Below, piece after piece: positions 4,933-23,796 of a DNA stretch of 64,000 nucleotides (position 1 is the first letter of the stretch; each line of letters starts with the position of its first letter). Source of the DNA: Trypanosoma brucei (taxonomy: Eukaryota). Both the position numbers and the translations under genes were made by a program. Under the pieces are notes generated by a model. It saw only the letters and a list, made by a program, of their open reading frames with translations, made no database searches and was not told where the DNA came from. The stretch is from NCBI GenBank assembly GCA_000002445.1, contig CH464491.1:3584001-3648000 (forward strand). Reading direction: 5' to 3'.

Positions 4933-7197
4933 CTACTGGGAAAGGTGTGACAAAGTGGCTGCTTGATCTAACACAATTTGCTGTAGGCGTTCTTTGGATG
5001 AGAGGGCTTCTGACAGAGACGCTTGTGCCGCCTCCAACTCGGTCATGCACCTCTCCTTCGTGTCTCTCTCCCTCTGCAGCTGCTCCTGCACGGTTCGAAG
5101 TAAAGACTCCCTTTCTTGAAGGGCCACCTGGGCGGCTTTCACTTCTCCCTGAAGAGAGCTAAATTTTTCATCATGCTCGGATGACAACATTCCCCTTACA
5201 ACCAGGCGAGCGTTCGTATCTTCCAGCTCACGACATCGACGAGAATCTGCCTCGTATGCTGACTGCACGCCTGAAAAGTCGTGTTGTAGCGACTCGTACC
5301 GATGCTGAAGGAGCACACACTCGTTCTCTTTCAAAATGAGCTGCTTGCTAAGCTCAGCAAGGCTTTGTTGCAGCTCATCTGCGGCTCGATCTTTAGCCAA
5401 CGAAACTTGTTGCAATTCTTCGCAAGTTGTCTCTAGTTGAGCCACTCGGGACGTTGACTGCACGAGTTTCCGATGGAGTTGGTCGTTTTCATATTCGTAG
5501 GTCTGCAAATCGAGACAACTCTGTTGATCTCTGCGGTGGAGTTGACTAACTTGTTCCTGCAGGTATATAATGCTTTGCTCCTTAGAAGAAAGCGTTGCAC
5601 GCACTACCTCCAATTCGCGCTCTATCGTCCTCTGAGCATCACGCTGCGATTCAGCCTCCTTCACTGCATTTTGATAGGCCGAAAGAACTTCTTGCAACTC
5701 ACCGTCTTTCGCTTTGAGAGAATATGCAAGTTGAGTTTCATGCCGAAGAAGCCTTTGCTGCTCAGTGACGAGCTTCTCATTCTCGTTCGCTAATTGCCCG
5801 ACTTGTTGATTGCAGTAGTTTTTGTTTGCCACAAGTTGATCCATATCTCTTTGAAATTGCTGTAGTCGCTCCTCCATGCCCTTCTTCTCACGCTCGAAGC
5901 TAAAAGAGGATGCTATCAGCTGCTGTTTCTCATCTTCAACGTTTGCCAACCGAACATGTAGCTCTCGTTCTGACGCCGCGTACTGACTGCACTTTTGCTG
6001 CAGAGATCGCACCTGAAGGGACAGCTTTTCCGCGTCATCACTCAACAATCTCTTATGTTCAGCCTCCTCTTCTAGCCGTTTCTTTGTTACCTCAAGGATG
6101 GAAACGGTCTCTCCGTGGATAGCCGAAATGTCGTCTATACGGCCCCTCAAATCATCACATTCGGCGCACTTAATTTCCAGCATATGTGCCAAACTCTGCA
6201 CAGAATGGGTTGTAGGATCGTTCAACTGGTTGCACGAATCCACTTGACATTCTTTCGCAGCAAGAGGTACGACATCCGTTTGGACCGAAGAAGACACCTG
6301 AGGAAGAGTGTCAGTTTGTGTCTCCGTGTGGACCTTTTGACTACTCATTCCGCTACGTAAGTTAGCGAGCTCCCTGCGAAGCGACGACCTTTCGTCGGAC
6401 AAGACTTGAATGACTTCCTGAAGGCCTTTGATTTGTGCATTACTAACGGTATGTTCCTGCGATGCCACTTGCAGTGCTTCAGATGTCTCGTTTTTCCGCT
6501 CCTTAATAACAGCCTCTAATTTTCGGATTTTTGCCAGGAAATTGTTTTTCTCTATGAGTAAAGAACTTTTTTCTGATAGAGCGGTCGCAAGCTGGCTTTC
6601 AAGAGTTTTTGTTCGAGCAGCCATGTCTTCTCCATCAGCCAAGTGATTCTTCCGTCCTCTCAATTGTTCAGTTAGAAGGCGATTTTCCTTCTCCCGAAGT
6701 TGAAGTTTATCGTTATACTCTATGGTCATTACACGTAGTTCCTCTTTTCCCGCTGCGCGGACGGCGTTAACCTGTTGTTCTAGTCGTTCCACCTCATTGT
6801 GCAGGAAAGTAATTTGTGAAAGTAGATGAGCGGTATTACCGTCCGTTATGCTGTCCGGTTTTGTTTTTCCGTCCCCACTGCGTGATCTGAGATTCGAAAT
6901 TTCCTGTAAGCAAGCAGTGAGGTGTTTGTTCTTGTCGGCAAGTTGGTCCTCAAGTGCTGTAATGATAGCCGGGCTATCAACTTCCGGGGTTTCGTCAATA
7001 AGTTTCTGCCATGCCTTCTCGGGAAATGAGTTCAGACACTTGTTCAGTGTAACACGTTGCTGTCCAAAGCATAGGTCTGGCTTCGTAACGGACATGTGTA
7101 GATAATTTTTAAGCTGAGCAATCTCGACCTCTTGAGCTTCACATTCCACTCTCAAAGCCCGATTTTCGCTCAACACTACTTCATCGGTTGATGCCAT
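4933..7197 (-). CDS. large coiled-coil protein (hypothetical, 754 aa)
   Basis: Uninterrupted ATG ORF. It shows heptad-like E/Q/L/R-rich composition throughout, e.g. LEQQVNAVRAAGKEELRVMTIEYNDKLQLREKENRLLTEQLRGRK. Every plus-strand ORF across it is under 110 aa. Confidence 0.75.
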   Translation of the reverse strand: MASTDEVVLSENRALRVECEAQEVEIAQLKNYLHMSVTKPDLCFGQQRVTLNKCLNSFPEKAWQKLIDETPEVDSPAIITALEDQLADKNKHLTACLQEISNLRSRSGDGKTKPDSITDGNTAHLLSQITFLHNEVERLEQQVNAVRAAGKEELRVMTIEYNDKLQLREKENRLLTEQLRGRKNHLADGEDMAARTKTLESQLATALSEKSSLLIEKNNFLAKIRKLEAVIKERKNETSEALQVASQEHTVSNAQIKGLQEVIQVLSDERSSLRRELANLRSGMSSQKVHTETQTDTLPQVSSSVQTDVVPLAAKECQVDSCNQLNDPTTHSVQSLAHMLEIKCAECDDLRGRIDDISAIHGETVSILEVTKKRLEEEAEHKRLLSDDAEKLSLQVRSLQQKCSQYAASERELHVRLANVEDEKQQLIASSFSFEREKKGMEERLQQFQRDMDQLVANKNYCNQQVGQLANENEKLVTEQQRLLRHETQLAYSLKAKDGELQEVLSAYQNAVKEAESQRDAQRTIERELEVVRATLSSKEQSIIYLQEQVSQLHRRDQQSCLDLQTYEYENDQLHRKLVQSTSRVAQLETTCEELQQVSLAKDRAADELQQSLAELSKQLILKENECVLLQHRYESLQHDFSGVQSAYEADSRRCRELEDTNARLVVRGMLSSEHDEKFSSLQGEVKAAQVALQERESLLRTVQEQLQRERDTKERCMTELEAAQASLSEALSSKERLQQIVLDQAATLSHLSQ

Positions 7198-7401
7198 TCT
7201 ATAAAGCTATTCGCAACGCAAATTGACAAGTGGTTAGAAAAGTGGGTAAACAAGCGGCCATAGCAAAAGAAAAAGCGAATGGAGAAGTATAGCACCAAGT
7301 CAACCACCCCCGTGAAGTGGCGCGCATATTTATTCGATTGAGTCGAACGCACACTGAACGGGAAAGAGACAAAACAAGAGAAAAAATTTGCGTTAGCAGA
7401 G

Positions 7402-7959
7402 TCATCTTTCTTTGTTGAGAAACTCTGCCCGCTGTTTTGCGAACAACTCTTTCTCGAGTTTCTTAATACGCTTATTGTTATAACTCTCTGCCGCTACTAC
7501 CAGTACTGGCACTGTAATTAGGCCTAAACAACATCCACAAGCGAAAACAAGACCAACCTTCGCTGGGATGCGGTTCTTTGGGCTTCTAAAAGCGTACACG
7601 GCAGCAGCAAAACTTCCCACAATAATCCCCGCGTCCAATCCCCGTTGCATTGGTTCACAGGAAAGAAAGAATCGCCACTGCTGTGAAAGCGCTCTTCTCT
7701 TTGCATCCCCGACGTTGAGACCCTCCTGTTCTATTATGTACTGTTTGAGATCCTTGACTTCGGAATCAGGATAAAGCTTACCCCTGTCTCGCTCGTCCTG
7801 AATGGCTGACATCATTTCCAGTGTCTCCTTTTTAGCAACCTTGTACCGCCCACTTCTTATGAGGTCGTCGATATTGGTAGACTCATGCTCGGTTGCTACA
7901 CGGCCTTCCGAACTGATTTCATTTGGCTCTTGTTTCTGGGTGCTCTGAAGGTGACCCAT
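7402..7959 (-). CDS. small membrane protein with two C-terminal transmembrane helices (hypothetical)
   Basis: The track ORF starts on TTG at 8055. The in-frame ATGs are at 8040 and 7959. A pyrimidine tract followed by AG on the minus strand (revcomp of ~7985-8011) lies between them, so I favour 7959 (MGHLQSTQKQEP...). The C-terminus has two hydrophobic helices (GIIVGSFAAAVYAF and VGLVFACGCCLGLITVPVLVVAA) separated by a short basic loop. Confidence 0.55.
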   Translation of the reverse strand: MGHLQSTQKQEPNEISSEGRVATEHESTNIDDLIRSGRYKVAKKETLEMMSAIQDERDRGKLYPDSEVKDLKQYIIEQEGLNVGDAKRRALSQQWRFFLSCEPMQRGLDAGIIVGSFAAAVYAFRSPKNRIPAKVGLVFACGCCLGLITVPVLVVAAESYNNKRIKKLEKELFAKQRAEFLNKER

Positions 7960-8445
7960 AGTACTACGTGACAACGGTAAAAGAAAAAAGAGGAAGATAT
8001 TGCCAATCACAAGGAAGCATGCATCGTGGTGGTAGCACATAAACAACAGTAACAAAAGATGCGCGAGATACCTCTACTCTTAAGAACATAGTATATTCAT
8101 TCGCTGCATGCAGATACTCATCGCCCGCCATTACCTCCCAAAGCATAGTGAACGCATGCACAACATGAGCGGTATTAAACGGCGACGAAAGGGGTTCAAA
8201 TAGCCGCTGATGCTTGTACCAAAACAAACAAGCGTACAATAATGAAATAATGGGGGGAAAACAACCGACGGCATTTTCAATCGCTAAAAACCGTCACGTT
8301 ACAACACGGACTCTTCGTGCACGGTTGTGACAGCTAATATATTATGACATCAAGAGTGGCAGCAAAGATAAGGTAACAGCATCCCAATAAAGTGAGGGGA
8401 AAACGGGGTGATGATGCACCCGCACCGAATATCAAACAATTTACA

Positions 8446-8455
8446 GGGGGGGGGG
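8446..8455 (+). repeat. G10 homopolymer
   Basis: Read directly: acagggggggggggtgtaa. Confidence 0.95.
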
Positions 8456-10909
8456 TGTAATCCCATAGACTCGCATAATGGAAGACACGCTCTAACAAAT
8501 ATATTTCACGTACTGTTGTTACGATACACATGAGAAAAAAATTCGGGGTAGCAGTTCAGGGCAAGCAAAGAGTCGCACGGAATGAGAGAGAATGGGAAAG
8601 AGATATCCCTCGCTACGTATTGGCCGTGCCTTGGCAAACAGGGGCGATGTATCTTTGACAAAACCGGTGAATAGGGGTCCACATCTCATAATCGGCGAAA
8701 CAACGGCCGGGTGCTACAAAATATGAATCACCAGAACAACTATTTGGTCGACGCAACCACTTGTTTATCATACCTTTCGGAGCGGTACAGGAAAATGTTT
8801 CAAGCAGAAAACAGATCCCTTTTTACGCAGAGCAACATATTACTTGCCAAGTGACAAAACAACCACGGCACCACCACCTATTATAAACGATTGATGATTC
8901 ATTAAGCATGATAAACTAAAGTTTTTACTGGTGAAGAATCAATTAACCATTACGTTGCAGCATATGTCGCAAAGCACATAAATGCCCCCATTTACATAAA
9001 TTTCAGGAAAAAAAAACCAACCCTCTCTAGGAACAACCCCCGGTCGTCGAGCCGCCAGCAATTAAACTTATCGCAGGCGGCACCTTCATATTGGAAGGGA
9101 AGGAGACAAACTGATAACCGATAACAACATTACAGGTGTCTGACACAACCCACAAAAAGTAAGCAAACCGTGCGACACAACGATGACAGCACATCGAACA
9201 CAAAAAAGAAAAAAAATAAACACAATCAAAGAGAAGCAAAGGAAACACCGAAAAACATTTGGTGCTCACCAGAGGGGGTTGGTAGAAAAGTAAACAGCCC
9301 CCGAGGTAGCATTTCGCTATTGTCTGCTTAGTATTGAGATAATAACAGTCTTCTAGTAGTGGCTTGTAGGAATAATACGCGCGACGATTCTCTTTCAAAG
9401 TGTTGGCAAGCTAACTCGGTTCCAAAAGAGGACCGAAGGAGCGAATCAACAACGAGGGCAAATTACTTAGAGTATATCCATCTGTCCTGAATCCGACGGT
9501 AAGTCACACATATGCACTTTAAAAGGCTCCTCGAGTATCGGCAGGGGGCTCGGAACGCACTTGCTCTCAACGACCTAACCAATCAGAGACCACGAACTAA
9601 GAAAAAAAAAGGGTGCCACAATAATGTAAAAGAAGCAGATTTGCCAGACCGCTCATTGAGTCGAAAGATATTTGTACCGTTTGCCGTACAGATAGTTCAT
9701 CGGTATCCGACATACTCTTCCGGGATCGCAGCGCATGCATTGCCATCCATTGATAAATCGTAATCGATGCAATCGCCACTAACGGCCGCAATTAAGAGAA
9801 TCAGCTCTCCACTATCTAAACTCTTAAGAACATAACCAACACAGCGTAGACAGCTCCCTCACGGGGACACCGGACCCATATCGAGCATCAATTGACTCCC
9901 ACACACAACCCTATTCACTGTAGCCAACACAGGCATTCCCATATTGACGGACCGCTATGATCGAGTAACATTCTTAACGCCGAAACGGTGAGGCACAACC
10001 CACGAAAATATAAAACAACACCCCCTTAGGAATGAGCCAGCAGGCCTCCGGTGCGAGCGCACAAAAAACCCAACGGAACATCCCCCGAATAACCGGCCGA
10101 ACAGCGGCGTCAACCCGCGGCATCGGGGTCTCTCAACAAAACAAAGGACGCGCCAGCATTCTTCATTTGAGAACCGAGCCCTCCGATACCAAGAAATGGG
10201 AGGCGACCCATGGTCCACCGGGTGGGCACACCAGAGTCTGATCCTGCGATTGAAACCCCCGCCCCGCGTAAGGGATCTCCCCAAGAGGAAGCAAGCGATC
10301 CACAGCAAAGGACAGACTCCTCCAGCCCCACCCCCACACGAGGTGGAGTCGGTGTCCCCCTCCCTACTCCGAAGTAAGTGCAAGCACTCTTCACCGGGGG
10401 AAGAGGGCGGACAGCCGAATGTGGAGCCCTGCCACGGACTAGCCAACAGCACCGAAGGCTACATGACTAGTAGCGCATCTGCACGAGCGGCACCGCACCG
10501 GGTGTTAAAAACTGTAGACCGTATGGGTCGTGGGGGAAAGTGGCACCGCAGGGGCGTAGGGTCCCGTTTTTTCTTCTCGCATTGCGGTGTCAAGCCCTCC
10601 CCTCCATGTGCGCCGCGTTTCTGCAACTGTAGGACCCCCACTGGGCCCGCCGGCGCCACCGGTGCTCGCTATCGGTTGCTTGGTGTGTATGTGTCCTTTC
10701 CCAGTCTTCGCACTTTGGGGTGTTCACGTATGGTTCTGGCGGTGCCGGCTCCGCCGTGGCGGGAACGATCCGCTAGGCGGGCAACGGCGTTGTTGCAGTT
10801 TTGCTACTTGGGTGATGGCGGACCGTCTGTTTGTGTATGAGCGGAAGTTTTTACTCGCGCTAGCGCATTTGGCACACCGCCTTTGGGATGGTCAGAAGTT
10901 TTTGCACGC

Positions 10910-10924
10910 GGGGGGGGGGGGGGG
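10910..10924 (+). repeat. G15 homopolymer inside the GC-rich island of the strand-switch region
   Basis: Read directly: cacgcg then 15 g then atgcg. A C8 run follows at 11088-11095 (tagtcccccccctccc). Confidence 0.95.
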
Positions 10925-12111
10925 ATGCGTTCTGAATTGCACTTTTCCTGTGCATCCGTTGAGGTCGGCTATTTTCAGGGTTGGTTGGTCGTTTGCAACT
11001 TTTGCCATCCGTCGGGTAACAAATTGCCATGTATTTCAGGGAGGTGTGCGAGTCCGAGGATGGTGCGGTGTGTCATGTTGCTGTAGTCCCCCCCCTCCCA
11101 AATGCGGAGGAGCTTGTAGCGTGGAATGAGTTTGCTCAATTTACGTGGTAGCCTTGTTTTTGTGTATCCATATGTAGGGGAGGAGCTGTCAGCAACCCTT
11201 ATGGCCGGAGAGCATACACAGTCAGTACACCGAGGTTGAATGCAGTTGGGGAGCTCTCCGGTTCGATTACAGCGTGGATGCAAGTTGTTGTTTTTGTTCC
11301 CGTGCCCCCATAGTCGTGAAGTTGTGTTGCTCAAGCGCGCTGCGACAGAGTAACTGATGAATCTTTTATTGTACTAAACCTATGTAACCGCCCCTCCTCC
11401 GCAATACACAAAAAAGAGCCACCTTGCAACTAGCTCCGAAAATCGGACTAGCTTTTTTCAGACGTATGCGTTGCCCCACGCTGATACACGGGTTCCGAAT
11501 GCGAGCTATGTCAAGCAACCTTTGTTTAAGTTTGTGGTTGCACCTTTGTAATGCGCCATCGTGGCTATGTGGTTATGCGACCACCTCGCCAGCTGTAGGC
11601 GTCTCCTCTCCCTCATGACCCAAATTTTTGGGATGGAGCGACGGGACGTTGAGTTTTTTTGTTTGCTTAGAAAACATTACTGTACAGCGCTCCACAGAAC
11701 TACGCAGTAGCATCTCCCTGTGGCTGAAGATATCAATTTAGCCGTTAGTGTAAGGTTGGAACCTCAGGTGTTTTGTTATCACGTTTCGGTTCCTTGCGCC
11801 GAGAATTTCCGCGAGTAGAGGTGCCGGTTGTGAATATTTTGTTGCGTAGTTCTATCTTACTGCCTTATCCACATGCTTTAACAGCAGCACCCTAGTGCAA
11901 AGCGAAGTAGGATTTGTGCGCCCCTGAGACAGTGCAGCACGATATGACATTCATTTGTGAAGGTGATGTGGAGGAGAAACCAACAGGTTCCAGTATCGCA
12001 ACCTCTCATATCGGGTGCCAGCAGTTTTGAAAGAACCACCACTGCTGCTGCCATCGGATGTTGTAGACTTCCTATTTGTAAGTGAAGGTGCGGTTTGTTC
12101 GTTTCCCCTAC

Positions 12112-12127
12112 TTTTTTTTTTTTTTAG
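12112..12127 (+). promoter_or_regulatory. T14 polypyrimidine tract plus AG. It is the probable SL trans-splice acceptor for ODC.
   Basis: cttttttttttttttttag at about 155 nt upstream of the ODC ATG. This is the classic trypanosomatid acceptor context. Confidence 0.5.
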
Positions 12128-12282
12128 AGACCGCGGGGAGGGCTTTCCTTGCTTCCCAGAAATATTATGTTTAAACACGCATGTGCGTCGGTAGCAAGCC
12201 TGGTAAAATTTGTCTGTACCATTTCCAATGAAGCGGTAGGGAAAGAGGCGGTACTGGGGAGGGATTAAGCAGTAAGGCAAAT

Positions 12283-13620
12283 ATGACCACCAAATCAACC
12301 CCCTCTTCTCTCTCTGTGAATTGTCTTGTAGCACAAACGGAGAAATCTATGGACATTGTCGTGAACGATGACTTGAGTTGTCGCTTTCTTGAAGGGTTTA
12401 ATACGAGGGATGCCCTCTGTAAAAAGATCAGTATGAATACGTGTGACGAAGGTGATCCGTTTTTTGTTGCCGATCTCGGGGACATTGTAAGGAAGCACGA
12501 AACATGGAAAAAATGCCTTCCCCGCGTCACGCCGTTTTACGCGGTCAAATGCAACGATGACTGGCGCGTACTTGGAACGCTGGCGGCTCTCGGCACGGGA
12601 TTTGATTGTGCTAGCAACACTGAGATACAACGTGTGAGAGGCATTGGTGTGCCACCGGAAAAAATAATATATGCGAACCCTTGTAAACAAAATTCACACA
12701 TACGGTACGCGCGTGATAGCGGCGTTGATGTCATGACATTTGATTGCGTGGATGAACTGGAAAAGGTCGCTAAAACGCATCCAAAGGCAAAGATGGTATT
12801 AAGAATTTCTACGGATGATTCGTTGGCTCGATGCCGTCTCAGTGTGAAGTTTGGTGCAAAGGTGGAAGACTGTAGGTTTATCTTGGAGCAGGCAAAGAAA
12901 CTGAATATCGACGTCACTGGTGTGAGTTTTCACGTGGGAAGCGGATCTACAGATGCCTCTACCTTCGCTCAAGCCATATCTGACTCCCGTTTCGTTTTCG
13001 ACATGGGTACTGAGCTTGGGTTCAATATGCACATTCTTGATATCGGTGGTGGGTTTCCAGGGACGAGGGATGCACCACTTAAATTTGAAGAGATTGCTGG
13101 TGTCATCAACAATGCGCTGGAAAAACATTTTCCACCTGACCTCAAGCTTACCATTGTTGCCGAGCCGGGAAGGTACTACGTTGCTTCAGCTTTCACACTT
13201 GCCGTAAATGTTATTGCCAAGAAGGTGACACCAGGGGTTCAGACCGACGTCGGTGCCCATGCTGAATCAAACGCACAGAGTTTTATGTATTATGTGAATG
13301 ATGGCGTGTATGGTTCATTTAATTGCATCCTGTATGACCACGCAGTCGTCAGGCCTTTGCCCCAGAGGGAGCCAATCCCCAATGAAAAGCTCTATCCCTC
13401 AAGTGTATGGGGTCCCACATGTGATGGTCTTGATCAGATAGTTGAACGATACTATCTTCCCGAGATGCAAGTGGGGGAATGGCTGCTCTTTGAGGATATG
13501 GGTGCCTACACGGTCGTAGGAACTTCTTCCTTTAATGGATTCCAGAGTCCGACTATTTACTATGTAGTCTCCGGGCTACCAGACCATGTTGTCCGGGAGT
13601 TGAAAAGTCAAAAATCATAA
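12283..13620 (+). CDS. ODC: ornithine decarboxylase (PLP-dependent, alanine-racemase fold)
   Basis: 445-aa ATG ORF. It is essentially identical, as far as I can recall, to the published T. brucei ODC ([26 protein letters not shown] ... PFYAVKCND ... [35 protein letters not shown] ... [16 protein letters not shown]). It includes the ~20-aa N-terminal extension, and an alternative internal ATG sits at 12349. It has the PLP-binding lysine motif (FYAVKCN) and the CDG active-site motif. Confidence 0.95.
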
Positions 13621-14763: not shown

Positions 14764-14775
14764 GGGGGGGGGGGG
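14764..14775 (+). repeat. G12 homopolymer in the ODC-GRESAG4 intergenic region
   Basis: Read directly: gtatag, then 12 g, then cggctgccgcg. Confidence 0.9.
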
Positions 14776-16638
14776 CGGCTGCCGCGCTGTGTGAACTGGC
14801 CGCAATGGTATCTTCCATTAGGTTAGATCTACGGAGTGAGTGACCCGAAGAGCCTGACATGGGCATGAAGCGCTCGCAAACTAGGTGTCGATGATTGTTT
14901 TCCCCTGCCGAGTCCGGTTGTCCGATTATACAAGAATTTTGACGTTATGAGGGCAAAGACGGAACCCATTTATTGGGCGGAACGCTCTTGTAGGATGATT
15001 CCACCTTGCTTGCGAAGGGATGATCTTCTTCGCATAGTGGGTACAGTGGCCGTTGCTTTTTATTTGAGCTGACATTTCGATATTACCGTTTCCAGGGCGC
15101 ACCACCTTGATTCACGATTGCGTAAAGGTGAGTGCGCAGACTCTTTTGTCCATCCTTTTTAGCGGTGCGAAGTCTAGTAATAATTTAAATACCCCTTCGA
15201 TACGTGTGTATGATCTTCCCCTTTCACCAACTGAGTGTTTAGGAACTAAGCACTGGGTATTGGAGTAAAGAAGCGCGTGTACGGGTGCCACTGTGCTGTA
15301 CTGTATCTGCGCAAGCTGGTTATTTTCCACGGGGAGGAGCCTTTGACGCGTGGGCTGTGCCAGCCAACGGCCACCTTCCTGGATTATTTCGTTGGGGCAT
15401 CATCATTGGAAATTTATTTGGATCACATCAACTCTGACAATCCTACCCATGCTCCGGGAGCCTATGCGAGCGGTCTTTCTTACGTTACCTCTGCACATAT
15501 TTTGTCATCCGTTAGGTGTCTAGCTTCATATAACATTTGAGGGTACATTCCTCTGTCTCAGATGTCATTGTCACTCATCCCTTTGATCAGCATGGGGAGG
15601 TGTTGGAGCTCGGATGGCGATTGAAGAGGGAATAGCGCGCGTTCTCCATGCGCAGATGGAGGTAATGGGCCAAGAAAATTTGAGTGTGCGTAATTTCTTG
15701 TGACCTTCTAACCAAGGGACGGTGTGCTCCCTGGAGCCACTGGGGCTTACTTTCTGCACTTCATGCAGGCTTATACCACACGTTCTGGAACGGGGGTTGC
15801 CTCGCCTTCATGAGGTGGTAGCTATCCTTTCGCTCGGTAGTCATGGGGCTGATTCCTATTTCTTCACGCGCTAACTGCCGAAATTAGAACTGTTATGACA
15901 AACTGGAGTGGCCGCGACAAGATGCTTTCTACAGGATTCAATGGAGTATCTTGACTTCGTGCGAGCTACGTCCACTTACTTCCAAACACACCGAAACAGC
16001 AGAGTCTGAACCAGCAATTCGGTGTTGCGCGCGTGTGTGGGAGGAAACGGCGTGTGGATTCGTGTTGCCACTTTTATGAGATGGGGATTGTATGTAACGT
16101 AACAACACTAAATATGCGATGCCGAAAACTGGGGATGAGCGACTCAGTCACGAAGACCACAGAAGTATTCAGTTGGGAGCGGGGGCTCATTTCTCAACCA
16201 AACTATATTCTCCAGGTCGCGACTCAGTAGGTGACAGTATAAGGGGCCTTATTCGTCTTTTGGTATTCCTACTGGACGTGATGCTTGCTTTTGTGTAGCC
16301 TGTGGTGTCATCCCTCCCATGTGACAGCAGGAATGAGATGCCGCAAATCGTGTTGGACTCCCGTCTTTTTGTAATTAACTCGCTGCGGCCCCCACACGGG
16401 ACTCCGCATCGCAGCATGAACCGATGCCTGAGCTTCGGTCCTCTTCAGTCGATCGGCGCACTGCCACAGGAAAATTTTGCTTTATCATTCCTAACACCGC
16501 TTTGTCTCTCAGTTCGTAATCTGCTCTCCGTTTCAAACCTGTTTTCTGAAGGACATACACGTAGGCAACAACGAAAACGATTACAAAAGTACCTCAGTGA
16601 AAGAGTTTCCGAGTGGTGCTATTTATACTTGCGGGGAG

Positions 16639-19600
16639 ATGACCACCACGAAGGCTTCGTGTCTTATATCCAGTGACAGTGCCCTTCGCCGAAATTCCAT
16701 TGTCGCCACGGCACCATTGCTGCTGCTACTGGCGCTAACGTTGCCTGTCGGTAATGGGGAGGTCACGCAAGTGAACGTCCTATCTCTCATGTACACCACT
16801 GAATTTCCCGTGGAGGACGCCGTTTTATTTGATAAAGGACTTAACGTTTCATTAATGGCGCGCCGTTTGGAGCTCAAGGGGCAAGTGAAAGTTGAGTTTA
16901 TTCGTCCTGCAGCACCTAACTCTCCAATAGATGTCGCAATCGAGCAGGGTGCTCAGCAGAGTGTAGGCAAACTATTGCTTGTTCTTGGTCCGCTGGGCGA
17001 CGATAACATCCAAATATTTAAAGGTGCGATGGAAGAGCATGAGTTAGTCGCCTTTACCCCTATTGCCACTTCAAGTGAGGGCTACGGCTGGGATCCTCAT
17101 CTCTACTACTTGACTGTTGGGCCGGATGCCGAGCTGATGGCTCTCGTTCGCTACGCTGTTGGTGTGTTGGGTCTTCAGCGGGTAGGCGTGATGTACGTGA
17201 AAGATACGTCGTTCAGCAGGAAATCATTTGAGTTCGTGGAGAAGCTGATGATGAGGATGGGTCACAACATAAGTTGCGTGTTCGCCCCAGAAAGTGGCTT
17301 CTCTTCTGCAGGTAATAAGGTCTCTTTGGACTCGGAATGGGAGCAATTCGCCGCTGCACTTCCACAGGCGATACTGTTGCTTGGTCCGCGCGGCCGCGAT
17401 AGTAGATGGTTTGTCATGCGGGTAGCAGAGGACAATCGGACATCGCGCTCACATTTGCTTGCGCAGTCAGGGTTACAGAGCTTTTTGCTGAAGACATGGT
17501 GCGAAGCATTGGAGGCGACGGGCGCTGAGTTTAGGACTGGACAGGTGATCTTCTCAGGGACGAATCCTCTGGCATGCGACACAGAGTACAAGGCGGTACA
17601 ACGGTTTATCGATGAAACAAAAAGGTATCTAGGAAACGAGGAGGAGGGGAGTGAGGACGCAGGGGCGGGAGGCCTCTCCAATGATACTGGGGGAGAGATG
17701 ATGATGCTTGGTTGGATGACTGGTGAGGTCATTTCTGCGGCACTGGGCAACAGTAGGGTTGTGAGCAACCGCACAGCTTTTATGGAATCCTTATATTATC
17801 AACGTCGTTACGTAGTAGATGACCTCGTGATCGGTGATTACGGCAACGAATGTGGGGAGGAGGCAATTCGGCAGGGTGCTGTCTGCCGCTGCAACCAGGG
17901 TGGAAGTATGGTTTACATGAAGGAAATGGTTAGTAAGACCCTGCTAAGGCCAGTGACTGCGGGTTATGTGACTTTAGGTATGTCGCGGTGCTCGAGGGAA
18001 TCTTTGCAACTTAATGCGCCTTTAAATGCTCTTCTTCTGCTTATGCAGGACGATGACGTTGCGCTAAGAGCAAACGTGGATTGGGACGTTGGCGCATCTG
18101 CTAGTGTGGGGAACGGGCACCTCACCGTGCATGACAGACTGTTTTTACACTCTTTCCTTGCGACATCAGACGCCGCCGCCAGTATTCTGCAGCAGCTGCT
18201 CAGTGTCAGGATTGTGTCGGCTGTGTTTGGTGTCGTCAGCGACGACATGCTCGAAATAGAGGGTATGACTTTCTTCGATCCGATAACAACTACTCCCCGT
18301 CTAACTAAGCCGAGGAAAAATGTTATTTACCTCTCTCCCACGATGGAACAGCAACTTTATGTGCTTGCAGAGTACCTTTACAGCAATCCGCCCCCGAGTG
18401 TCAAAGCCATCATACGGAGCAAGGAGGCTTCCGAAATTTCAAAGCTGCTGAGAAAGACGCTTCTAACGTTTGATGCCCCTTTGAGCCCCGCAGACATCCT
18501 TGATGATGATGATGAATTGGGCGACTACCTTCCGACGGAGGGAGATGTAATGGTCATCGGCCTCACCAAGTCTGATGTGGGGACGATCGCGGAGCACCTC
18601 GAGACTTTTGAGGAGAGTCGGGTGTTTTTGATCTTCTCTGAATTAGCGTTGCTGTTTGAGGAGTTGAGAGCGGCATTCAGGAACAAAGCGTCCGCCCATC
18701 GCCTCGTGTTTGCTACCAACTTACCCCACTGGGCGGAAATCGAAATGCCAACGGACCGAGTAGATAATCTTAATTCTGTCGTCCCAGATCGGTCACTGTG
18801 GTCTCCCATGGCGTTGCTCGGTTTCGTCACCGGACGGTTGATGGAGTCAATTTTGGAGCGCATGGAGAACGTGAACCCTGGACTACTGGCGGATTTATTC
18901 TTCAAGGAGAGCCTCATTACTGTCGACGGAATGTGGTACGGACCGTACACTGATGATTGTGATATCGGCAAACCAATTGAAGGAAACCACTGCATCCATA
19001 ATTATGGAGCCACGCATATATCCGTGTGGTCGATGGCCCGTGTACTGAGATCGGACGTTCCACTGCTACAAAATCCCACAACACCATCGATGGAATACAT
19101 CGACCCCGACGCTATTGTATTGACTGGTGCGGCCATCGCTGGCATTGGCATTGCTGTGTTCGCCTCCTTGTTGCTCCTCGCCGCGCTTGGGGCCTTATTA
19201 TACTTTACGATGAACAGAACCCGTGACAACGCCAGTGCGCCGAAGGAGCCGATGGAGCCCGTCACGATCATCTTTACTGACATTGAAAGCAGCACTGCTA
19301 TATGGGCTGCACACCCTGAGCTGATGCCCGATGCCGTTGCCGCTCACCACCGCGTAATCCGCCGCTTGATTGAAAAATACGACTGCTACGAGGTGAAAAC
19401 CGTTGGCGACTCGTTCATGATTGCTTGCAAAGGTGCGTACCCGGCCGCGCGGCTCGTGTGGGAGCTCCAAGTATCGTTCTTGAATCATGATTGGGGAACA
19501 GGCGTGTTTGATGAGATTTATCGTGACGCTGAAAGGGAGAGGCGGTCAGAGGACCGTGAATACAACCCACCAACTGCATATCTGGACTCCGAAGTGTACA

Positions 19601-20283
19601 GTCGTTTGTGGAATGGCCTGCGTGTACGTGTTGGAATCCACACCGGATTGTGCGACATCCGACGCGATGAGGTAACGAAGGGTTACGACTACTACGGCCA
19701 GACAACAAATATGGCTGCGCGGACGGAGAGCGTGGCAAATGGCGGTCAGGTGCTGATGACGCGTGGGACGTACTTTTCGCTTAGCTCAACTGAGCGTCAA
19801 GAGTTTGGTGTCACGTCTCTCGGCTTGGTTCCGCTCCGCGGTGTGCCCGAACCCGTGGAGATGTACCAGTTGGATGCCGTTGCCGGCCGTGTCTTTGCCC
19901 CGCTACGCTTTGATAGAGAAGCCTGTTGCGAGCAGGAGGACGGGACTAGCACTTCCGCCAGTGACCACGGCTCCACAGTGGCCGAGCTAAGTGAATCAGC
20001 TCAGTGGGTTGTTGCTTCTTTGCGGGCTGTGCTTCGCGCATTCAGCACATCTCAGCGCCAAAAACTGCTTATGCCCATTTGTGAGCGTTGGAACGTGTCG
20101 ATACCGCGAAAACCTCTGCCCATGTGGGGTGAAGAACACTGTGAGGCGATTATGCGGTCTATCGGGGCAAAGATTGGCTCCGTCGTGGACCACCCCGCCG
20201 CAACTGACGCCACGATGACGGGGAGCACTGTGACAAATGATTCGGTGATATTCATATCCGGAAACCCCGAAGCGCAGCGGTGA
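16639..20283 (+). CDS. GRESAG4: receptor-type adenylate cyclase (GRESAG4 family). It has an extracellular periplasmic-binding-protein-like domain, a single TM, and a class III cyclase catalytic domain.
   Basis: The track ORF starts on GTG at 16597, and the first in-frame ATG is at 16639 (MTTTKASCLISS...). The N-terminal signal peptide is ATAPLLLLLALTLPVGNG. The TM helix is TGAAIAGIGIAVFASLLLLAALGALLYF. The catalytic core is VTIIFTDIESSTAIWAAHPELMPDAVAAHHRVIRRLIEKYDCYEVKTVGDSFMIACK ... YGQTTNMAARTES, which is typical of trypanosome GRESAG4/ESAG4 cyclases. Confidence 0.9.
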   Translation: MTTTKASCLISSDSALRRNSIVATAPLLLLLALTLPVGNGEVTQVNVLSLMYTTEFPVEDAVLFDKGLNVSLMARRLELKGQVKVEFIRPAAPNSPIDVAIEQGAQQSVGKLLLVLGPLGDDNIQIFKGAMEEHELVAFTPIATSSEGYGWDPHLYYLTVGPDAELMALVRYAVGVLGLQRVGVMYVKDTSFSRKSFEFVEKLMMRMGHNISCVFAPESGFSSAGNKVSLDSEWEQFAAALPQAILLLGPRGRDSRWFVMRVAEDNRTSRSHLLAQSGLQSFLLKTWCEALEATGAEFRTGQVIFSGTNPLACDTEYKAVQRFIDETKRYLGNEEEGSEDAGAGGLSNDTGGEMMMLGWMTGEVISAALGNSRVVSNRTAFMESLYYQRRYVVDDLVIGDYGNECGEEAIRQGAVCRCNQGGSMVYMKEMVSKTLLRPVTAGYVTLGMSRCSRESLQLNAPLNALLLLMQDDDVALRANVDWDVGASASVGNGHLTVHDRLFLHSFLATSDAAASILQQLLSVRIVSAVFGVVSDDMLEIEGMTFFDPITTTPRLTKPRKNVIYLSPTMEQQLYVLAEYLYSNPPPSVKAIIRSKEASEISKLLRKTLLTFDAPLSPADILDDDDELGDYLPTEGDVMVIGLTKSDVGTIAEHLETFEESRVFLIFSELALLFEELRAAFRNKASAHRLVFATNLPHWAEIEMPTDRVDNLNSVVPDRSLWSPMALLGFVTGRLMESILERMENVNPGLLADLFFKESLITVDGMWYGPYTDDCDIGKPIEGNHCIHNYGATHISVWSMARVLRSDVPLLQNPTTPSMEYIDPDAIVLTGAAIAGIGIAVFASLLLLAALGALLYFTMNRTRDNASAPKEPMEPVTIIFTDIESSTAIWAAHPELMPDAVAAHHRVIRRLIEKYDCYEVKTVGDSFMIACKGAYPAARLVWELQVSFLNHDWGTGVFDEIYRDAERERRSEDREYNPPTAYLDSEVYSRLWNGLRVRVGIHTGLCDIRRDEVTKGYDYYGQTTNMAARTESVANGGQVLMTRGTYFSLSSTERQEFGVTSLGLVPLRGVPEPVEMYQLDAVAGRVFAPLRFDREACCEQEDGTSTSASDHGSTVAELSESAQWVVASLRAVLRAFSTSQRQKLLMPICERWNVSIPRKPLPMWGEEHCEAIMRSIGAKIGSVVDHPAATDATMTGSTVTNDSVIFISGNPEAQR

Positions 20284-23200
20284 AAACCACTCCACGAACT
20301 AATGACAGGGGAAGGAATCGTGAGGTAAGCCCATTTAGGGGCCTACCGATGTAGGGCAGTGTAGTTAATAGAATGCTATTACTTTTCCCCCAGACTTTTG
20401 AAAACGCTTACGGTGACGGCGTGTGATTTGTTTTAAACCAGTTTTCGCTAATAATTTTGTCACTGCGCCGCTCAGGGATGTGAGATTGTATACTGTGTGG
20501 CGTACCCCTTCGGCAGTGGCAATAAGCGTTCGACCTTCACCCGTGACCGCAGACTGTCGCGCCGGTGGAATATGTGATTTTTTGTTTTTCTTCCTTCCTT
20601 TCTTTCTTTTTTTTTTTCCTGAGCGTACGCGATTTACTCCATACGGCGGCAACTTTTTCCTTATTTATATGCATATATATATAAATCGTACCCTAAAGTT
20701 GTGCACGTGCTATTTGCATATATTTGTTTTTTTGTCATTGGTCTTCCAGCGGTGAATACGCGTTTACACCTTTAACGTGCAAAGATTGCATGCCTAACTC
20801 TGTGTCAAACGTGTTATCGCAGGGAACACTCCTTCTTGGTACCAAACACTTTCGTGTGTTGGGGCGTATCGCCGCGTACCTTCCATGCACCGCTCATATC
20901 TCGGGGCATTGTTATTTTTTAAAGACATCGATCGTATGACTTTAGTGAGTGTTATGACTTTCGTTTTTCTCGAGCTTCCGTGTTTACCTCCTGCCGTTGT
21001 CGTTATTTTTGACATTTGTTTCACTAATTCTCCTATTATTATGTTACATGGGTTAGCCCAGCTGCGAGAGCCACCGCGCCCTCGCTACAATTTCTTCTCC
21101 CGCTTCTCGGCTGCCCATCCACCAAGCAAAACCTATCGAGCAATATGAAGTGGGTGTGTACCATGCTAAGTTTGTTGTTCGGTTTCGCGGCGCTGCAGCC
21201 CCTAGTTTCTCTGATCCTCTTTAAGTTTCAGCAGGCCTTCTCCCTTCACTCCTTAGGCACCTGTATTATAGTTTGTCGCACGGCAACGGCAGTTGTGTAT
21301 ACGCTGCCGTCGTAATCGGTGCACGTTATCACTGGGTGTGGTGTATCCGGCCAATCTTGCATGTTAGGGTGCATTATCCCGTATTAGTTCCCATGGTGTT
21401 TAGTAAGTGAAGCAACGCAAGCACCATTGTTTCAGCCGAGCTGCTGGGGACGATTATGTCTTGGCCCTTGTGGAACACTTATGTTTTAAACGTTTTTAAT
21501 ACGAGGCAACGTAAGTATTCGTACCCCAAGAGAAACCTCGTTGCCCACCAGTCAGTTTTTTCCTCGGCGAAGTAGTGAACGCATCCCCCATCCTGTCGAC
21601 AATGCTTGTGGAGAGGCCCACTCATAATTGTGTGATGACGCGCAGTGCCTTCGTATTGATGTCTTCACTGGTGCGGGCGGGGCCGATTCTCAAGGTCCGA
21701 GGGTCACTAAGCTATTCAGCACGTATTGTGGGCTCTTTTTTCTCCCCACTGAGCTGCGTGAAACGCCTGCAACCCCGCACGGCTATAATATCAACCCCAT
21801 GACGTAGAGCAGCCTGCGGGAGGAGTCTTTTCGCGTTTTTGCGTATGGCAGTTGAGCCACCCGTGACGAAGCTGTGTCTGACCCAGGAAATGCGATTTAG
21901 CCTTCGGTCGAGGGAGTTCACTGTGGTTATGAACGGTACTGATCCAAAAACTGACCTCCGCGTTGCCCCGCAGGTCATGGAAATAGTTTCTAGCCATGTG
22001 TTGCTAACTGTATAAGGAGTGTTCCACCAAACCAGTTAGGTGGGGTTATATTTTGCATTGACTTAGTGCCACGATGATTTACACATGATCCGCCGATTCG
22101 GACGTTCTTGTATAGTTTGCATGCCTCCGCTTCTTTTTGTTTCTTCACCATATTTCACCAAACAGCTGTGTCACAGCATTTGCTGTTGAGTGTTTGGAGC
22201 CCTGACTGTTCTGGCTCAAGTAAGTTGTCGAGTTGATGCTTCAGGTTCCTTACAATCATCCTTTCCATTAGCTTGCAGAGGGCACTCATAGGGTCAGTGG
22301 CCGGGACGATGCGCCTTTGTTGCGTGTTCGTTTGGCTGAAGGGTTGGTATTATAACGTCCCTTCTCCTCTGTTCTAGCATTTTGCACGCTTCATACGGTG
22401 CTTAAGCATCCCTAGTAAGCATTCTCTCCTGGAACCACGGCCACTGTACATAAATTGGCCTGGTGCTAACTTCGGTTCTCCCAGGGTAAACCGTTTGGGT
22501 TCACAATTCCTCATGCTTGGTTGTTTCGTCCTTGAAGCTTCTGCCGTCATTGTCAACCCCTTCCTGCACATTTCCAGAATCACGTCCTCTTAACTTTGTC
22601 AATGGGTGTGCATTAACAACTGCTACTGTACTGGTCGATGGCCTCGTTGCAAGCACCGCATTCACTAGGTCGCAGCTTTCGGGTTCTGTGATCCCTGCTC
22701 CCAGTGTTGTTTTCCTTCATTTGACGGTCGTTTCTGTAACCACACCTCTAATTTTGTGTATCTTCGCTAGCTTTCCCCCTTTCCCTCTCTTTTAACATTC
22801 CTTTTCCCTATCTTCTGGGAGCCTGCGGAAGGAATGGTCAAGCCTTTACGCACTGTCAGGTAAGATAAAATAACCATTATAATCCTTGTTTTCGTATCAC
22901 ACCTAAGATAAGTATCGCAAAGAGTGAGTTTTTAAAACGCCCACCCAACCCAACTGTCACCGCCTCCGCACCAGAGCCGGGTAAGGTCATTTCCAGCACT
23001 TTCCTTATCGTCGGTAAATTTACTTCCATATATTTGAGGACTCGCATTTACCAACAATACCCTTTCCCCAACGATGCAAACGATGGATATGATAGCCACG
23101 ACAAAGGTTGAAATTATTAAGTTTCCCGCTCTTTTTCTTCCATTTAACGCAGAAAGACAGGGTAAAGATAATTCAGATTTGTTAGTTCCTACGTCCGGAA

Positions 23201-23796
23201 ATGTGGCACACGCATGTTGCCTTTAGTTACCTTTTCTCGTTCGGTTCCATTTTCGCTAAAAAAAAATAATACGGGTTTACTCACCTCATCCACTTCTCTC
23301 GGAGAACATTTCGGCATTTTCTTTTGCTCCCACGCGTAGGTTTACCGTTAAAATGTTGTCACTTTTATCCCACGCGACTAATGCCGTGCGGTGGCCACAG
23401 TAATTAACTTTGGCATTCGCGTCGATGCCTGTTTCGGTTGTGATTCAATTGCGATCGGTGATTGAATTCAGTTTTGAGATTCAGCCTCTTACCCAACGTT
23501 CTCTGGTCGTGGCCACTCCTGGCGGTGGGGCCCGTTTGCGCTCGATTTTTTGTTGTTTCCAGTTGCGGTAAGTGTGTAGGGGCAAATGTAAATTTGCATC
23601 CCTTGGTTGTGCATTAGTTTAGCCGATATCCCCTTATGCTCTCCTCTTCGTGGGTCGTTTGTTACGCCCGTATTGTCCCTGATCCTGTATCGGCGCCCGT
23701 AAGCGCTTGAAAGAGTGCGCTTTTCCGATGTTCCGGAATCTAGATGTCATTTTGCGGTCTGCTTATTCACTGTGCTGGTGTGGTTTCCCTAGAATG

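What the first reader, a model, noticed from the sequence alone, without database searches (positions are those of the whole stretch)
9950..11300. GC-rich island inside the strand-switch region, possible structured non-coding locus
The ~1.3 kb is conspicuously GC-rich relative to the rest of the window, with ccccgcc and ggcgg runs and the G15 tract. The only ORFs (10196..10840, 10587..11129, 9955..10452) are overlapping, P/R/G-rich, low-complexity frames on both strands. That is what GC-rich non-coding DNA produces by chance. Sequence such as …ggaggcgacccatggtccaccgggtgggcacaccagagtctgatcctgcgattgaaacccccgccc… looks more like a structured RNA than a protein gene. I looked for a telomerase-RNA template (ccctaaccc) and for tRNA A- and B-boxes and found neither, so its identity is open.
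Basis: seen in the sequence. Interest (0 to 1): 0.5.

Follow-up and report, generated by a model that had tools for sequence, protein, structure and literature searches.

The report
Trypanosome bidirectional Pol II promoter core
The GC-rich island is the non-coding core of an already mapped two-way RNA polymerase II start region between two diverging gene clusters of Trypanosoma brucei, not a structured-RNA gene or a protein gene, so it is an ordinary, known kind of feature.

Summary
Window 9950..11300 is the most GC-rich 1.35 kb of the 64 kb (0.571 vs 0.477), holds a G15 tract, and carries three overlapping ORFs.

The window is T. brucei chromosome 11 (Tb927_11_01_v4 3,584,001-3,648,000). The island sits midway between the first genes of two diverging polycistronic units: Tb11.01.5280 on the minus strand and ornithine decarboxylase on the plus strand. 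Kolev et al. 2010 list both units as "Divergent" Pol II start units.

The island is two back-to-back arms. G/T-rich 10-mers lie only on the minus strand left of 10499 (68:0) and only on the plus strand right of it (53:0). That is the published "GT-rich promoter" signature.

No Rfam match, no excess folding stability and no listed transcript support a structured RNA.

One ORF is an annotated gene (Tb11.01.5290, "T. brucei spp.-specific protein"). It is an orphan, lacks codon periodicity, diverges at the intergenic rate (3 synonymous : 10 non-synonymous codon changes vs T. b. gambiense), and is on Kolev's list of ORFs with no detectable transcript.

Verdict: known Pol II divergent transcription start region; the ORF is probably a spurious call. 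Low interest.

The parts
9750..10499 (-). Left promoter arm. It is A/C-rich on the plus strand, so G/T-rich on the minus strand, which is the sense strand of the leftward polycistronic unit (Tb11.01.5280 -> Tb11.01.4720). It contains several C4-C5 runs (G-runs on the sense strand).
   Evidence: 10-mers with >=9 G/T: 68 on the minus strand and 0 on the plus strand in 9750..10499. G+T fraction on the plus strand is 0.29-0.43 per 100 bp. C-runs are listed.
10450..10550 (.). Switch point of strand composition, the centre of the bidirectional region.
   Evidence: The cumulative keto-skew minimum of the first 30 kb is at 10499. GC skew and AT skew both change sign here. Left arm G+T is 0.371 and right arm 0.618, Fisher P = 2e-21.
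10500..11300 (+). Right promoter arm. It is G/T-rich on the plus strand, the sense strand of the rightward unit that starts with ornithine decarboxylase (Tb11.01.5300 -> Tb11.01.5310).
   Evidence: 10-mers with >=9 G/T: 53 on the plus strand and 0 on the minus strand in 10500..10999. G+T is 0.56-0.71 per 100 bp.
10910..10924 (+). G15 homopolymer on the sense strand of the rightward unit. It is the only canonical G-quadruplex motif in the strand-switch region, and its length varies between strains.
   Evidence: One of three G3+N1-7 x4 motifs in the whole window. One G shorter in T. b. gambiense, and an N-gap in the T. equiperdum assembly.
10196..10840 (+). Annotated ORF Tb11.01.5290 ('T. brucei spp.-specific protein', 214 aa). 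Judged a spurious gene call that spans the switch point.
   Evidence: Annotation. It is an orphan with no Pfam domain. There are 3 synonymous and 10 non-synonymous codon changes against gambiense, where 74% non-synonymous is expected under neutrality. The stop codon and the upstream frame differ in gambiense, which has 300 aa. GC1-3 is flat and codon LLR is -0.135. It appears in Kolev 2010 Table S2, 'no detectable transcript'.
7402..7963 (-). First gene of the leftward unit (Tb11.01.5280, a conserved 185-aa transmembrane protein), with its spliced-leader acceptor site at 7963.
   Evidence: ORF and start codon. Conserved as far as Bodo. Splice site 3591963 and poly(A) site 3591332 in v4 coordinates (Kolev Table S1). 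Window position = v4 coordinate - 3,584,000.
12332..13620 (+). First gene of the rightward unit: ornithine decarboxylase (423-aa form from 12349), with its spliced-leader acceptor site at 12332.
   Evidence: Pfam PF02784/PF00278. 100% identity to a T. brucei ODC PDB chain. Splice site 3596332.

Best explanation
The island is the core of a divergent RNA polymerase II transcription start region (dTSR) of Trypanosoma brucei chromosome 11. It is two oppositely oriented, dispersed 'GT-rich' promoters set back to back.

Left of position 10499 the minus strand is G/T-rich. Right of it the plus strand is G/T-rich and carries the G15 tract. On each side, therefore, the sense strand of the outgoing polycistronic unit is G/T-rich.

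By analogy with published experiments on other T. brucei start regions, such G/T-rich sense-strand sequence has three effects: it disfavours canonical nucleosomes, it promotes H2A.Z deposition, and it lets Pol II initiate at many sites with a directional bias.

The polymerase then runs about 2.5 kb leftwards to the first splice acceptor at 7963 (Tb11.01.5280) and about 1.8 kb rightwards to the one at 12332 (ornithine decarboxylase). RNA made upstream of those acceptors is not spliced-leader capped and is discarded. That is why no stable transcript is recorded from the island.

The long overlapping ORFs, including the annotated Tb11.01.5290, are side effects of GC-rich, strand-skewed (stop-codon-poor) DNA. 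They are not genes.

Shown here:
- the position between two mapped divergent units;
- the strand-specific G/T architecture;
- the absence of coding, RNA-family, folding and conservation signals.

Inferred:
- that initiation occurs inside the island itself;
- that H2A.Z, SPARC and Pol II peak here.
For: Location.
- The minus-strand genes 4933..7197 and 7402..7959 lie to the left. ODC (12349..13620) and a receptor adenylate cyclase (16597..20283) lie on the plus strand to the right.
- Kolev et al. 2010 Table S14 lists Tb11.01.5280->4720 (-) and Tb11.01.5300->5310 (+) as 'Divergent' putative Pol II transcription units. The paper states that 5'-triphosphate reads were enriched at every divergent unit.

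Architecture.
- Keto-skew minimum at 10499.
- G/T-rich 10-mers 68:0 on the minus strand left of it and 53:0 on the plus strand right of it.
- G15 on the sense strand.
- This matches Wedel et al. 2017. They found 10-mers made of long G or T stretches enriched on the coding strand at the 5' end of TSRs. Synthetic GT-rich elements drove orientation-dependent transcription and H2A.Z deposition.

Replicates.
- The other Pol II start listed in this window ('Internal', upstream of Tb11.01.5320) also has a GC-rich island at about 23900..24700. The 1351-bp window holding it (23371..24721) is the third most GC-rich in the window and the second most GC-rich outside genes.
- A T. melophagium divergent SSR on the same gene cluster shows a keto-skew flip with a GC spike of 0.53-0.65 against a locus mean of 0.385.

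Not coding, not structured RNA.
Against: - I could not view 5'-triphosphate RNA, Pol II, H2A.Z or SPARC tracks for this locus. Placing initiation inside the island, rather than elsewhere in the 4.3-kb SSR, is an inference from composition.
- The island evolves at the neutral intergenic rate: 2.0 vs 1.65 substitutions per 100 bp, P = 0.36. It has no sequence similarity to the second island or to other species. Any function is therefore compositional rather than motif-based, and composition could be a consequence of initiation rather than its cause.
- GC-richness as such, as opposed to GT-richness and G-runs, was not stated in the papers I could read.
- The T. cruzi counterpart is not comparable. 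Its GC-rich stretch is a DGF-1 gene fragment.
- The SPARC paper found no common motif under promoter peaks.
Confidence: 0.8

Rival explanations
1. Passive by-product. The GC-rich, skewed composition is a mutational footprint of long-term divergent transcription initiation (or of replication, R-loops or G4 formation) at this strand-switch region. The sequence itself contributes nothing to promoter function.
For: The divergence rate cannot be distinguished from other intergenic DNA. The two islands of the window share no motif, and there is no similarity to other trypanosomes. G-tract length drifts between strains. The SPARC study found no shared motif at promoters.
Against: Synthetic GT-rich sequences are sufficient for directional transcription and H2A.Z deposition in T. 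brucei. The same composition recurs at two other start regions examined here. Selection on composition need not lower the substitution rate measurably over 2% divergence.
Confidence: 0.12
2. A structured non-coding RNA gene. The island would encode a folded RNA of unknown family.
For: High GC content and local hairpin-like strings. One minus-strand window (10825..10974) reaches z = -2.65.
Against: No Rfam match at gathering score, and only E>2 noise hits to animal miRNA and lncRNA families. No tRNA. Mean folding z is -0.25/-0.48, no different from the flanks. Substitution rate is neutral. No homologous sequence in T. vivax (partial), T. melophagium, T. grayi or T. cruzi. No novel or non-coding transcript with coordinates in 3,593,xxx-3,595,xxx in Kolev Tables S7 and S11.
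Confidence: 0.04
3. A real, lineage-specific protein gene (Tb11.01.5290, as annotated), possibly born de novo from promoter DNA.
For: It is annotated in TREU927, DAL972 and T. equiperdum. The stop-free run of 282 codons is longer than 98-99% of composition-matched shuffles.
Against: Only itself is found among 1.84 billion representatives. No Pfam domain. Codon changes are 3 synonymous to 10 non-synonymous against gambiense, compared with 12:6 in neighbouring real genes (Fisher P = 0.029), and fit the neutral expectation of 74%. A stop-codon loss and a 1-nt indel change the ORF to 300 aa in gambiense. GC1/2/3 is flat at 0.60/0.62/0.62 and the codon-usage LLR is negative, while all 18 real genes are positive. 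It is listed as giving no detectable transcript. It straddles the point where transcription directions diverge.
Confidence: 0.02
4. A chromosome-maintenance element: either a replication origin/ORC1-CDC6 site or a centromeric 'GC-rich strand-switch domain' of the kind described for T. cruzi.
For: T. brucei ORC1/CDC6 sites and origins map to PTU boundaries (abstract of PMC3607257). A T. cruzi centromere was mapped to a 16-kb GC-rich strand-switch domain (title cited).
Against: The island is 1.35 kb, not 16 kb. There are no tandem repeat arrays in 7000..13000 and no repeats in the SSR. To my own knowledge, T. brucei centromeres are large AT-rich repeat arrays. The supplementary files of the origin paper held here contained nothing for this locus. 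Origin activity would also be compatible with the promoter explanation rather than replace it.
Confidence: 0.03

Closest known systems
T. brucei divergent Pol II transcription start regions with GT-rich dispersed promoters (Siegel 2009; Kolev 2010, PMC2936537; Wedel 2017, PMC5579346)
   Same: [quoted passage not shown] This very SSR is listed as 'Divergent' in Kolev Table S14. G/T-rich 10-mers and a long G run are restricted to the sense strand on each side. There is no conserved motif and no stable transcript of its own.
   Different: Nothing essential differs. The literature I could read stresses GT-richness and G/C skew, not the raised G+C (0.57-0.65) seen here. Locus-level chromatin and TSS data were not checked.
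Sequence-specific 'focused' Pol II core promoters of T. brucei (Cordon-Obras 2022, cited in PMC9566855 and PMC11796357)
   Same: Two oppositely oriented, direction-dependent promoters inside a divergent SSR.
   Different: The two islands in this window share no motif.
Mammalian CpG-island bidirectional promoters
   Same: A GC-rich, about 1-kb, motif-poor, nucleosome-unfriendly island from which transcription diverges, with G-skew on the sense strand and G4 potential.
   Different: CpG counts are not strikingly enriched (4-12 per 100 bp). There is no evidence of a link to DNA methylation. Trypanosome units are polycistronic, and published sense:antisense bias is 4:1. This is an analogy only.
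Rfam structured RNA families
   Same: GC-rich sequence with local hairpin potential.
   Different: No covariance-model match, no excess stability, no conservation, no listed transcript.

Membership tests
T. brucei divergent Pol II transcription start region (dTSR) / GT-rich promoter | [quoted passage not shown] | tested here: met
   Minus-strand genes are to the left and plus-strand genes to the right. The first splice acceptors are at 7963 (-) and 12332 (+).
T. brucei divergent Pol II transcription start region (dTSR) / GT-rich promoter | Experimental mapping of Pol II initiation (5'-triphosphate RNA) to this SSR | tested here: met
   Kolev 2010 Table S14 lists Tb11.01.5280->4720 and Tb11.01.5300->5310 as 'Divergent' units. 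The text states that enrichment was seen at every divergent unit. Resolution is at gene level only; no nucleotide coordinates were retrieved.
T. brucei divergent Pol II transcription start region (dTSR) / GT-rich promoter | G/T-rich 10-mers and G-runs enriched on the coding strand at the 5' end of each TSR | tested here: met
   68:0 (minus strand) left of 10499 and 53:0 (plus strand) right of it. G15 lies on the plus strand. The criterion comes from Wedel 2017.
T. brucei divergent Pol II transcription start region (dTSR) / GT-rich promoter | Enrichment of H2A.Z/H2B.V, H4K10ac, SPARC (SET27/CRD1) and Pol II | not testable with these tools
   No ChIP tracks were available. The SPARC paper's supplements do not mention the flanking genes.
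T. brucei divergent Pol II transcription start region (dTSR) / GT-rich promoter | Orientation-dependent promoter activity in a reporter assay | not testable with these tools
   This is an experiment and was not done.
Structured non-coding RNA gene | Match to a curated covariance model | tested here: not met
   There were 0 hits at gathering score in the window. In 9000..12300 only three hits appeared, with E = 2-4.8, to animal miRNA and lncRNA families. No tRNA or tmRNA.
Structured non-coding RNA gene | Folding energy beyond that of dinucleotide shuffles | tested here: not met
   16 island windows gave mean z of -0.25 (+) and -0.48 (-), with a minimum of -2.65. Flank means were -0.05 and -0.01.
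Structured non-coding RNA gene | Sequence conservation or compensatory changes in related species | tested here: not met
   The rate against gambiense equals the intergenic rate. blastn and tblastx found no similarity to the T. vivax (1.45 kb only), T. melophagium, T. grayi or T. cruzi loci. T. congolense was not obtainable. There is too little divergence for a covariation test.
Structured non-coding RNA gene | A discrete stable transcript | tested here: not met
   No entry with chr11 coordinates 3,593,xxx-3,595,xxx appears in Kolev Tables S7 (novel transcripts) or S11 (non-coding). That covers procyclic forms only. Later lncRNA catalogues were not checked.
Protein-coding gene (Tb11.01.5290) | Homologues or a domain | tested here: not met
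   Only self among 1.84 billion representatives. No Pfam domain. The cluster holds only Trypanozoon copies.
Protein-coding gene (Tb11.01.5290) | Purifying selection and a stable reading frame | tested here: not met
   3 synonymous and 10 non-synonymous codon changes. Divergence is 2.17 substitutions per 100 bp against 0.44 in real CDS. The stop codon is lost and the N-terminal frame changed in gambiense.
Protein-coding gene (Tb11.01.5290) | Codon usage and 3-base periodicity typical of T. brucei genes | tested here: not met
   LLR per codon is -0.135, against +0.006 to +0.161 for 18 real genes. GC1-3 is 0.60/0.62/0.62, against about 0.55/0.40/0.52.
Protein-coding gene (Tb11.01.5290) | Trans-spliced, polyadenylated mRNA | tested here: not met
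   It is listed in Kolev 2010 Table S2, 'annotated ORFs not producing a detectable transcript'.
Centromere / tandem-repeat domain | Large repeat arrays or a multi-kb GC-rich degenerate-retroelement domain | tested here: not met
   TRF finds only the G15 run and two tiny A-rich repeats in 7000..13000. No repeat families were found. The island is 1.35 kb.
G-quadruplex-forming sequence | G3+ N1-7 repeated four times | tested here: met
   The G15 tract satisfies the pattern and is one of three such motifs in 64 kb. Formation in vivo was not testable. G4 ChIP peaks are reported as about 5-fold enriched at TSS/TTS in general.

The most novel reading that the evidence does not exclude
Raised G+C may be a general sequence hallmark of trypanosome Pol II start regions, beyond the published GT-richness. 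The proposed hallmark is a compact core of about 1 kb (0.57-0.65 G+C against 0.38-0.48 background) placed exactly at the keto-skew switch. Such a core could be the nucleation site for SPARC and H2A.Z. All three start regions I could inspect show it: this dSSR, the internal start at about 23900..24700, and a T. melophagium dSSR. I found no paper stating it.

A rarer alternative, not excluded, is that the unusually long open frame (P about 0.01-0.02) marks de novo gene birth from promoter DNA.
Probability: 0.3. Interest if true: 0.4.

Novelty: already known. Interest (0 to 1): 0.15.

Why it matters
It matters little beyond annotation hygiene.

- The locus is an instance of a well-studied class, the trypanosome Pol II transcription start region. 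This particular strand-switch region was already catalogued in 2010.
- It is a clean example of the two-arm GT-rich architecture, with a sharp switch point at 10499.
- There is further evidence that the reference-genome gene Tb11.01.5290 ("T. brucei spp.-specific protein") is a spurious ORF call inside a promoter.
- A modest lead: GC-rich cores may mark start regions generally. That could help predict start regions in trypanosomatid genomes that lack chromatin data.

Tried and rejected
1. Rfam at gathering score on the whole window and at E<=10 on 9000..12300 gave nothing credible. ARAGORN found nothing.

2. Repeats and tandem repeats in the SSR: only short chance matches and the G15 run. This rejects a repeat element, centromere array or inverted-repeat structure.

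3. Pseudogene idea. In T. melophagium, T. grayi and T. cruzi a 342-aa TPT-like gene sits upstream of the orthologue of Tb11.01.5280. tblastn found no remnant of it in the window, and tblastx of the SSR against those loci found nothing.

4. Orthologous intervals.
- T. equiperdum is 99.6-99.9% identical and uninformative.
- T. congolense could not be fetched (the TREU927 record also failed).
- The T. vivax contig ends 1.45 kb upstream of the gene.
- The GC-rich stretch in T. cruzi is a DGF-1 fragment, so it is not comparable.

6. Literature.
- Siegel 2009 and Cordon-Obras 2022 are not held. The G-run claim of Siegel 2009 therefore rests on Wedel's citation and on my memory, and the Cordon-Obras motif could not be tested.
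- The supplements of the replication-origin, SPARC and G4 papers gave nothing for this locus.

7. The sigma-70 promoter/terminator scanner was not used because it is irrelevant for a eukaryote.

8. Considered but not tested: the island as a relic of the GC-rich 5' UTR of a horizontally acquired vertebrate ODC. It lies more than 1 kb from the ORF, and neutral decay would have erased any similarity.
Full report
**Observation.** The sequence statements are correct.
- Window 9950..11300 has G+C of 0.571 against 0.477 for the window. The most GC-rich 1351-bp window of all 64 kb is 9991..11341 (0.574), and 200-bp bins reach 0.63-0.645.
- The G15 tract is at 10910..10924 and is the longest G or C run present.
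- The three ORFs exist as listed, and the quoted string lies at about 10199..10265.

**Where we are.**
- ORF 12283..13620 is ornithine decarboxylase (Pfam PF02784/PF00278). It is 100% identical to a T. brucei ODC PDB chain.
- ORF 16597..20283 is a receptor-type adenylate cyclase.
- Coordinates in the supplements of Kolev et al. 2010 (PMC2936537) place Tb11.01.5290 at Tb927_11_01_v4:3594196..3594840. That is window 10196..10840. The window is therefore chr11 v4 3,584,001-3,648,000.
- Left of the island the genes are on the minus strand (754-aa protein 4933..7197; 185-aa transmembrane protein 7402..7959 = Tb11.01.5280, conserved as far as Bodo). Right of it they are on the plus strand.
- The published splice acceptor sites of the two first genes are at window 7963 (-) and 12332 (+). 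They also correct both annotated start codons.
- The island lies in the middle of this 4.3-kb divergent strand-switch region.

**Not a protein gene.** One of the ORFs is in fact annotated: Tb11.01.5290 / Q382G5, "T. brucei spp.-specific protein". It is also called in T. equiperdum, and as a 300-aa protein in T. b. gambiense. Five tests for coding function fail.
- *Homology:* no Pfam domain, and no relative other than itself among 1.84 billion representative proteins.
- *Divergence:* aligned to the T. b. gambiense locus, the island has 2.0 substitutions per 100 bp. That matches other intergenic DNA (1.65; Fisher P = 0.36) and is 4.6 times the rate of neighbouring coding sequence (0.44; P = 5e-7).
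- *Codon changes:* inside the ORF, 3 codon changes are synonymous and 10 are not. This fits the neutral expectation of 74% non-synonymous and differs from the 12:6 of the real genes (P = 0.029).
- *Frame stability:* in gambiense the stop codon is lost, and a 1-nt indel in an A-run joins a different upstream frame.
- *Codon usage:* codon-position G+C is flat (0.60/0.62/0.62). The leave-one-out codon-usage score is negative (-0.135 per codon), whereas all 18 real genes of the window score positive.

Kolev's Table S2 also lists this ORF among annotated ORFs with no detectable transcript.

Long ORFs are expected here. All three stop codons need both A and T, and each arm of the island is poor in one of them. 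Stop density is 0.024 against 0.041-0.043 in other intergenic DNA. Block shuffles give a mean longest open run of 167-174 codons. The observed 282-codon run is still at the 98th-99th percentile, a small excess I cannot explain.

**Not a structured RNA.**
- Rfam gives no hit at gathering score in the window, and only E = 2-4.8 noise in 9000..12300. There is no tRNA.
- Sliding 150-nt minimum-free-energy z-scores against dinucleotide shuffles average -0.25 (+) and -0.48 (-) in the island, much as in the flanks. The minimum is -2.65.
- The island evolves neutrally.
- It has no nucleotide or translated similarity to the corresponding regions of T. vivax (only 1.45 kb available), T. melophagium, T. 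grayi or T. cruzi.
- Kolev's lists of novel and non-coding transcripts hold nothing with chr11 coordinates 3,593,xxx-3,595,xxx.

T. congolense was not obtainable.

**What it is.** The island is two arms with opposite strand composition.
- The cumulative (G+T)-(A+C) curve has its minimum at 10499. GC skew and AT skew both flip there.
- G+T on the plus strand is 0.371 in 9800..10499 and 0.618 in 10500..11299 (P = 2e-21).
- 10-mers with at least 9 G/T occur 68:0 on the minus strand in 9750..10499 and 53:0 on the plus strand in 10500..10999.
- On each side, therefore, the sense strand of the outgoing gene cluster is G/T-rich. C4-5 runs lie on the left, and G runs including the G15 lie on the right.

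This is the signature reported by Wedel et al. 2017 (PMC5579346).
- Pol II is enriched over about 2 kb there.
- Synthetic GT-rich elements drive orientation-dependent transcription and H2A.Z deposition, and are nucleosome-depleted.

A later paper summarises divergent SSRs as containing two oppositely oriented core promoters.

Kolev's Table S14 lists exactly these two units (Tb11.01.5280->4720 minus; Tb11.01.5300->5310 plus) as "Divergent" Pol II transcription units. The text states that 5'-triphosphate reads were enriched at every divergent unit.

**Replicates.**
- The same table lists an "Internal" start before Tb11.01.5320. In the window this is the 5.7-kb gene-free gap 20284..25982. It holds a second GC-rich island at about 23900..24700 (0.53-0.64) with the same kind of overlapping ORFs. 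The 1351-bp window around it (23371..24721, G+C 0.554) is the third most GC-rich in the 64 kb. The two islands share no sequence.
- A T. melophagium divergent SSR bounding the syntenic cluster has a keto-skew minimum flanked by a 0.53-0.65 G+C spike, against a locus mean of 0.385.
- T. cruzi is not informative, because its GC-rich stretch is a DGF-1 fragment.

**Mechanism.**
- *Shown:* the position, the published unit-level mapping, the strand architecture, and the absence of coding and RNA signals.
- *Inferred from the cited experiments on other loci:* the G/T-rich sense strands and G-runs exclude canonical nucleosomes, favour H2A.Z/H2B.V and SPARC, and allow dispersed, directionally biased Pol II initiation in both directions from around 10499.
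- RNA made upstream of the first splice acceptors (7963 and 12332) is not capped by the spliced leader and is degraded. Kolev describes such SL-less, polyadenylated, heterogeneous species at start regions.
- The G15 tract can form a three-tetrad quadruplex on the non-template strand. G4 ChIP peaks are reported as about 5-fold enriched at TSS/TTS in general. Whether that matters here is unknown.

**Rivals.**
- The main one is that the composition is a passive footprint rather than a cause. It is supported by the neutral rate and the lack of motifs. It is opposed by the sufficiency of synthetic GT-rich DNA.
- A structured RNA and a real protein gene are each unlikely, for the reasons above.
- A centromere-like domain is rejected on size and lack of repeats.
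- Origin activity was not testable and would not exclude the promoter reading.

**Novelty and score.** This is a known kind of element at a locus already catalogued, so "already known" and low interest. Two small by-products remain: the case against Tb11.01.5290 as a gene, and the untested generalisation that a compact GC-rich core marks start regions.

**Limits.**
- No locus-level ChIP or TSS tracks were available.
- Siegel 2009 and Cordon-Obras 2022 could not be read.
- T. congolense was missing.
- The transcript evidence comes from one 2010 procyclic-form data set.

Noticed in passing
window 23900..24700 (within gene-free gap 20284..25982): A second GC-rich island (0.53-0.64 per 100 bp) carries overlapping 80-135-aa ORFs on both strands. 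It lies 1.3-2 kb upstream of the first gene of the unit that Kolev 2010 Table S14 calls an 'Internal' Pol II start (Tb11.01.5320->6250). It is G/T-rich on the plus strand and has no sequence similarity to the first island.
   Followed up: partly
window 9175..9324 (+), next to 9209..9515: The plus strand folds far better than shuffles (z = -4.5 in the scan, -5.3 with 200 shuffles). It abuts the longest stretch of the SSR with no change between T. b. brucei and T. b. gambiense (306 bp). There is no Rfam hit, and the minus strand (the one transcribed towards Tb11.01.5280) has z = -0.9. This may be an artefact of an A-rich stretch adjoining GC hairpins.
   Followed up: partly
window 12349..13620: The nearest relatives of T. 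brucei ornithine decarboxylase in the protein search are vertebrate ODCs at 63-66% identity. No other kinetoplastid appeared among the top 120 hits. This is consistent with the published idea of horizontal acquisition from a vertebrate.
   Followed up: no
window 7960..9950 vs L004:4580..5608, L005:65..1090, L007:8804..9838: In T. melophagium, T. grayi and T. cruzi a 341-344-aa TPT/EamA-like transporter gene precedes the orthologue of Tb11.01.5280 on the same strand. T. brucei has no trace of it (tblastn), so Tb11.01.5280 became the first gene of the unit.
   Followed up: partly
window 10910..10924, 14764..14775, 8446..8455, 12112..12125: Homopolymer tracts vary in length between T. b. brucei, T. 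b. gambiense and T. equiperdum. The G15 is one G shorter in gambiense and is replaced by an N-gap in the T. equiperdum assembly. The G12 between ODC and the adenylate cyclase is shortened in both.
   Followed up: yes
window 7402..8055 and 12283..13620: The longest ORFs overstate both first genes. Published splice acceptor sites (7963 and 12332) lie inside them, so the proteins start at 7959 (185 aa) and 12349 (423 aa). Some database entries still carry the long forms (212 aa and 247 aa for Tb11.01.5280; 445 aa for ODC in DAL972).
   Followed up: yes
L004:3849..4580 (T. melophagium): A compact 730-bp divergent strand-switch region has a keto-skew minimum at 4098 and a 200-bp G+C spike (0.53-0.65) in a locus averaging 0.385. 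It is a miniature of the T. brucei architecture.
   Followed up: partly
window 9992..10840 (+): The stop-free run of 282 codons is longer than 98-99% of dinucleotide-preserving block shuffles of the same region, even though every other test says it is non-coding. This is a slight, unexplained depletion of stop trinucleotides.
   Followed up: partly
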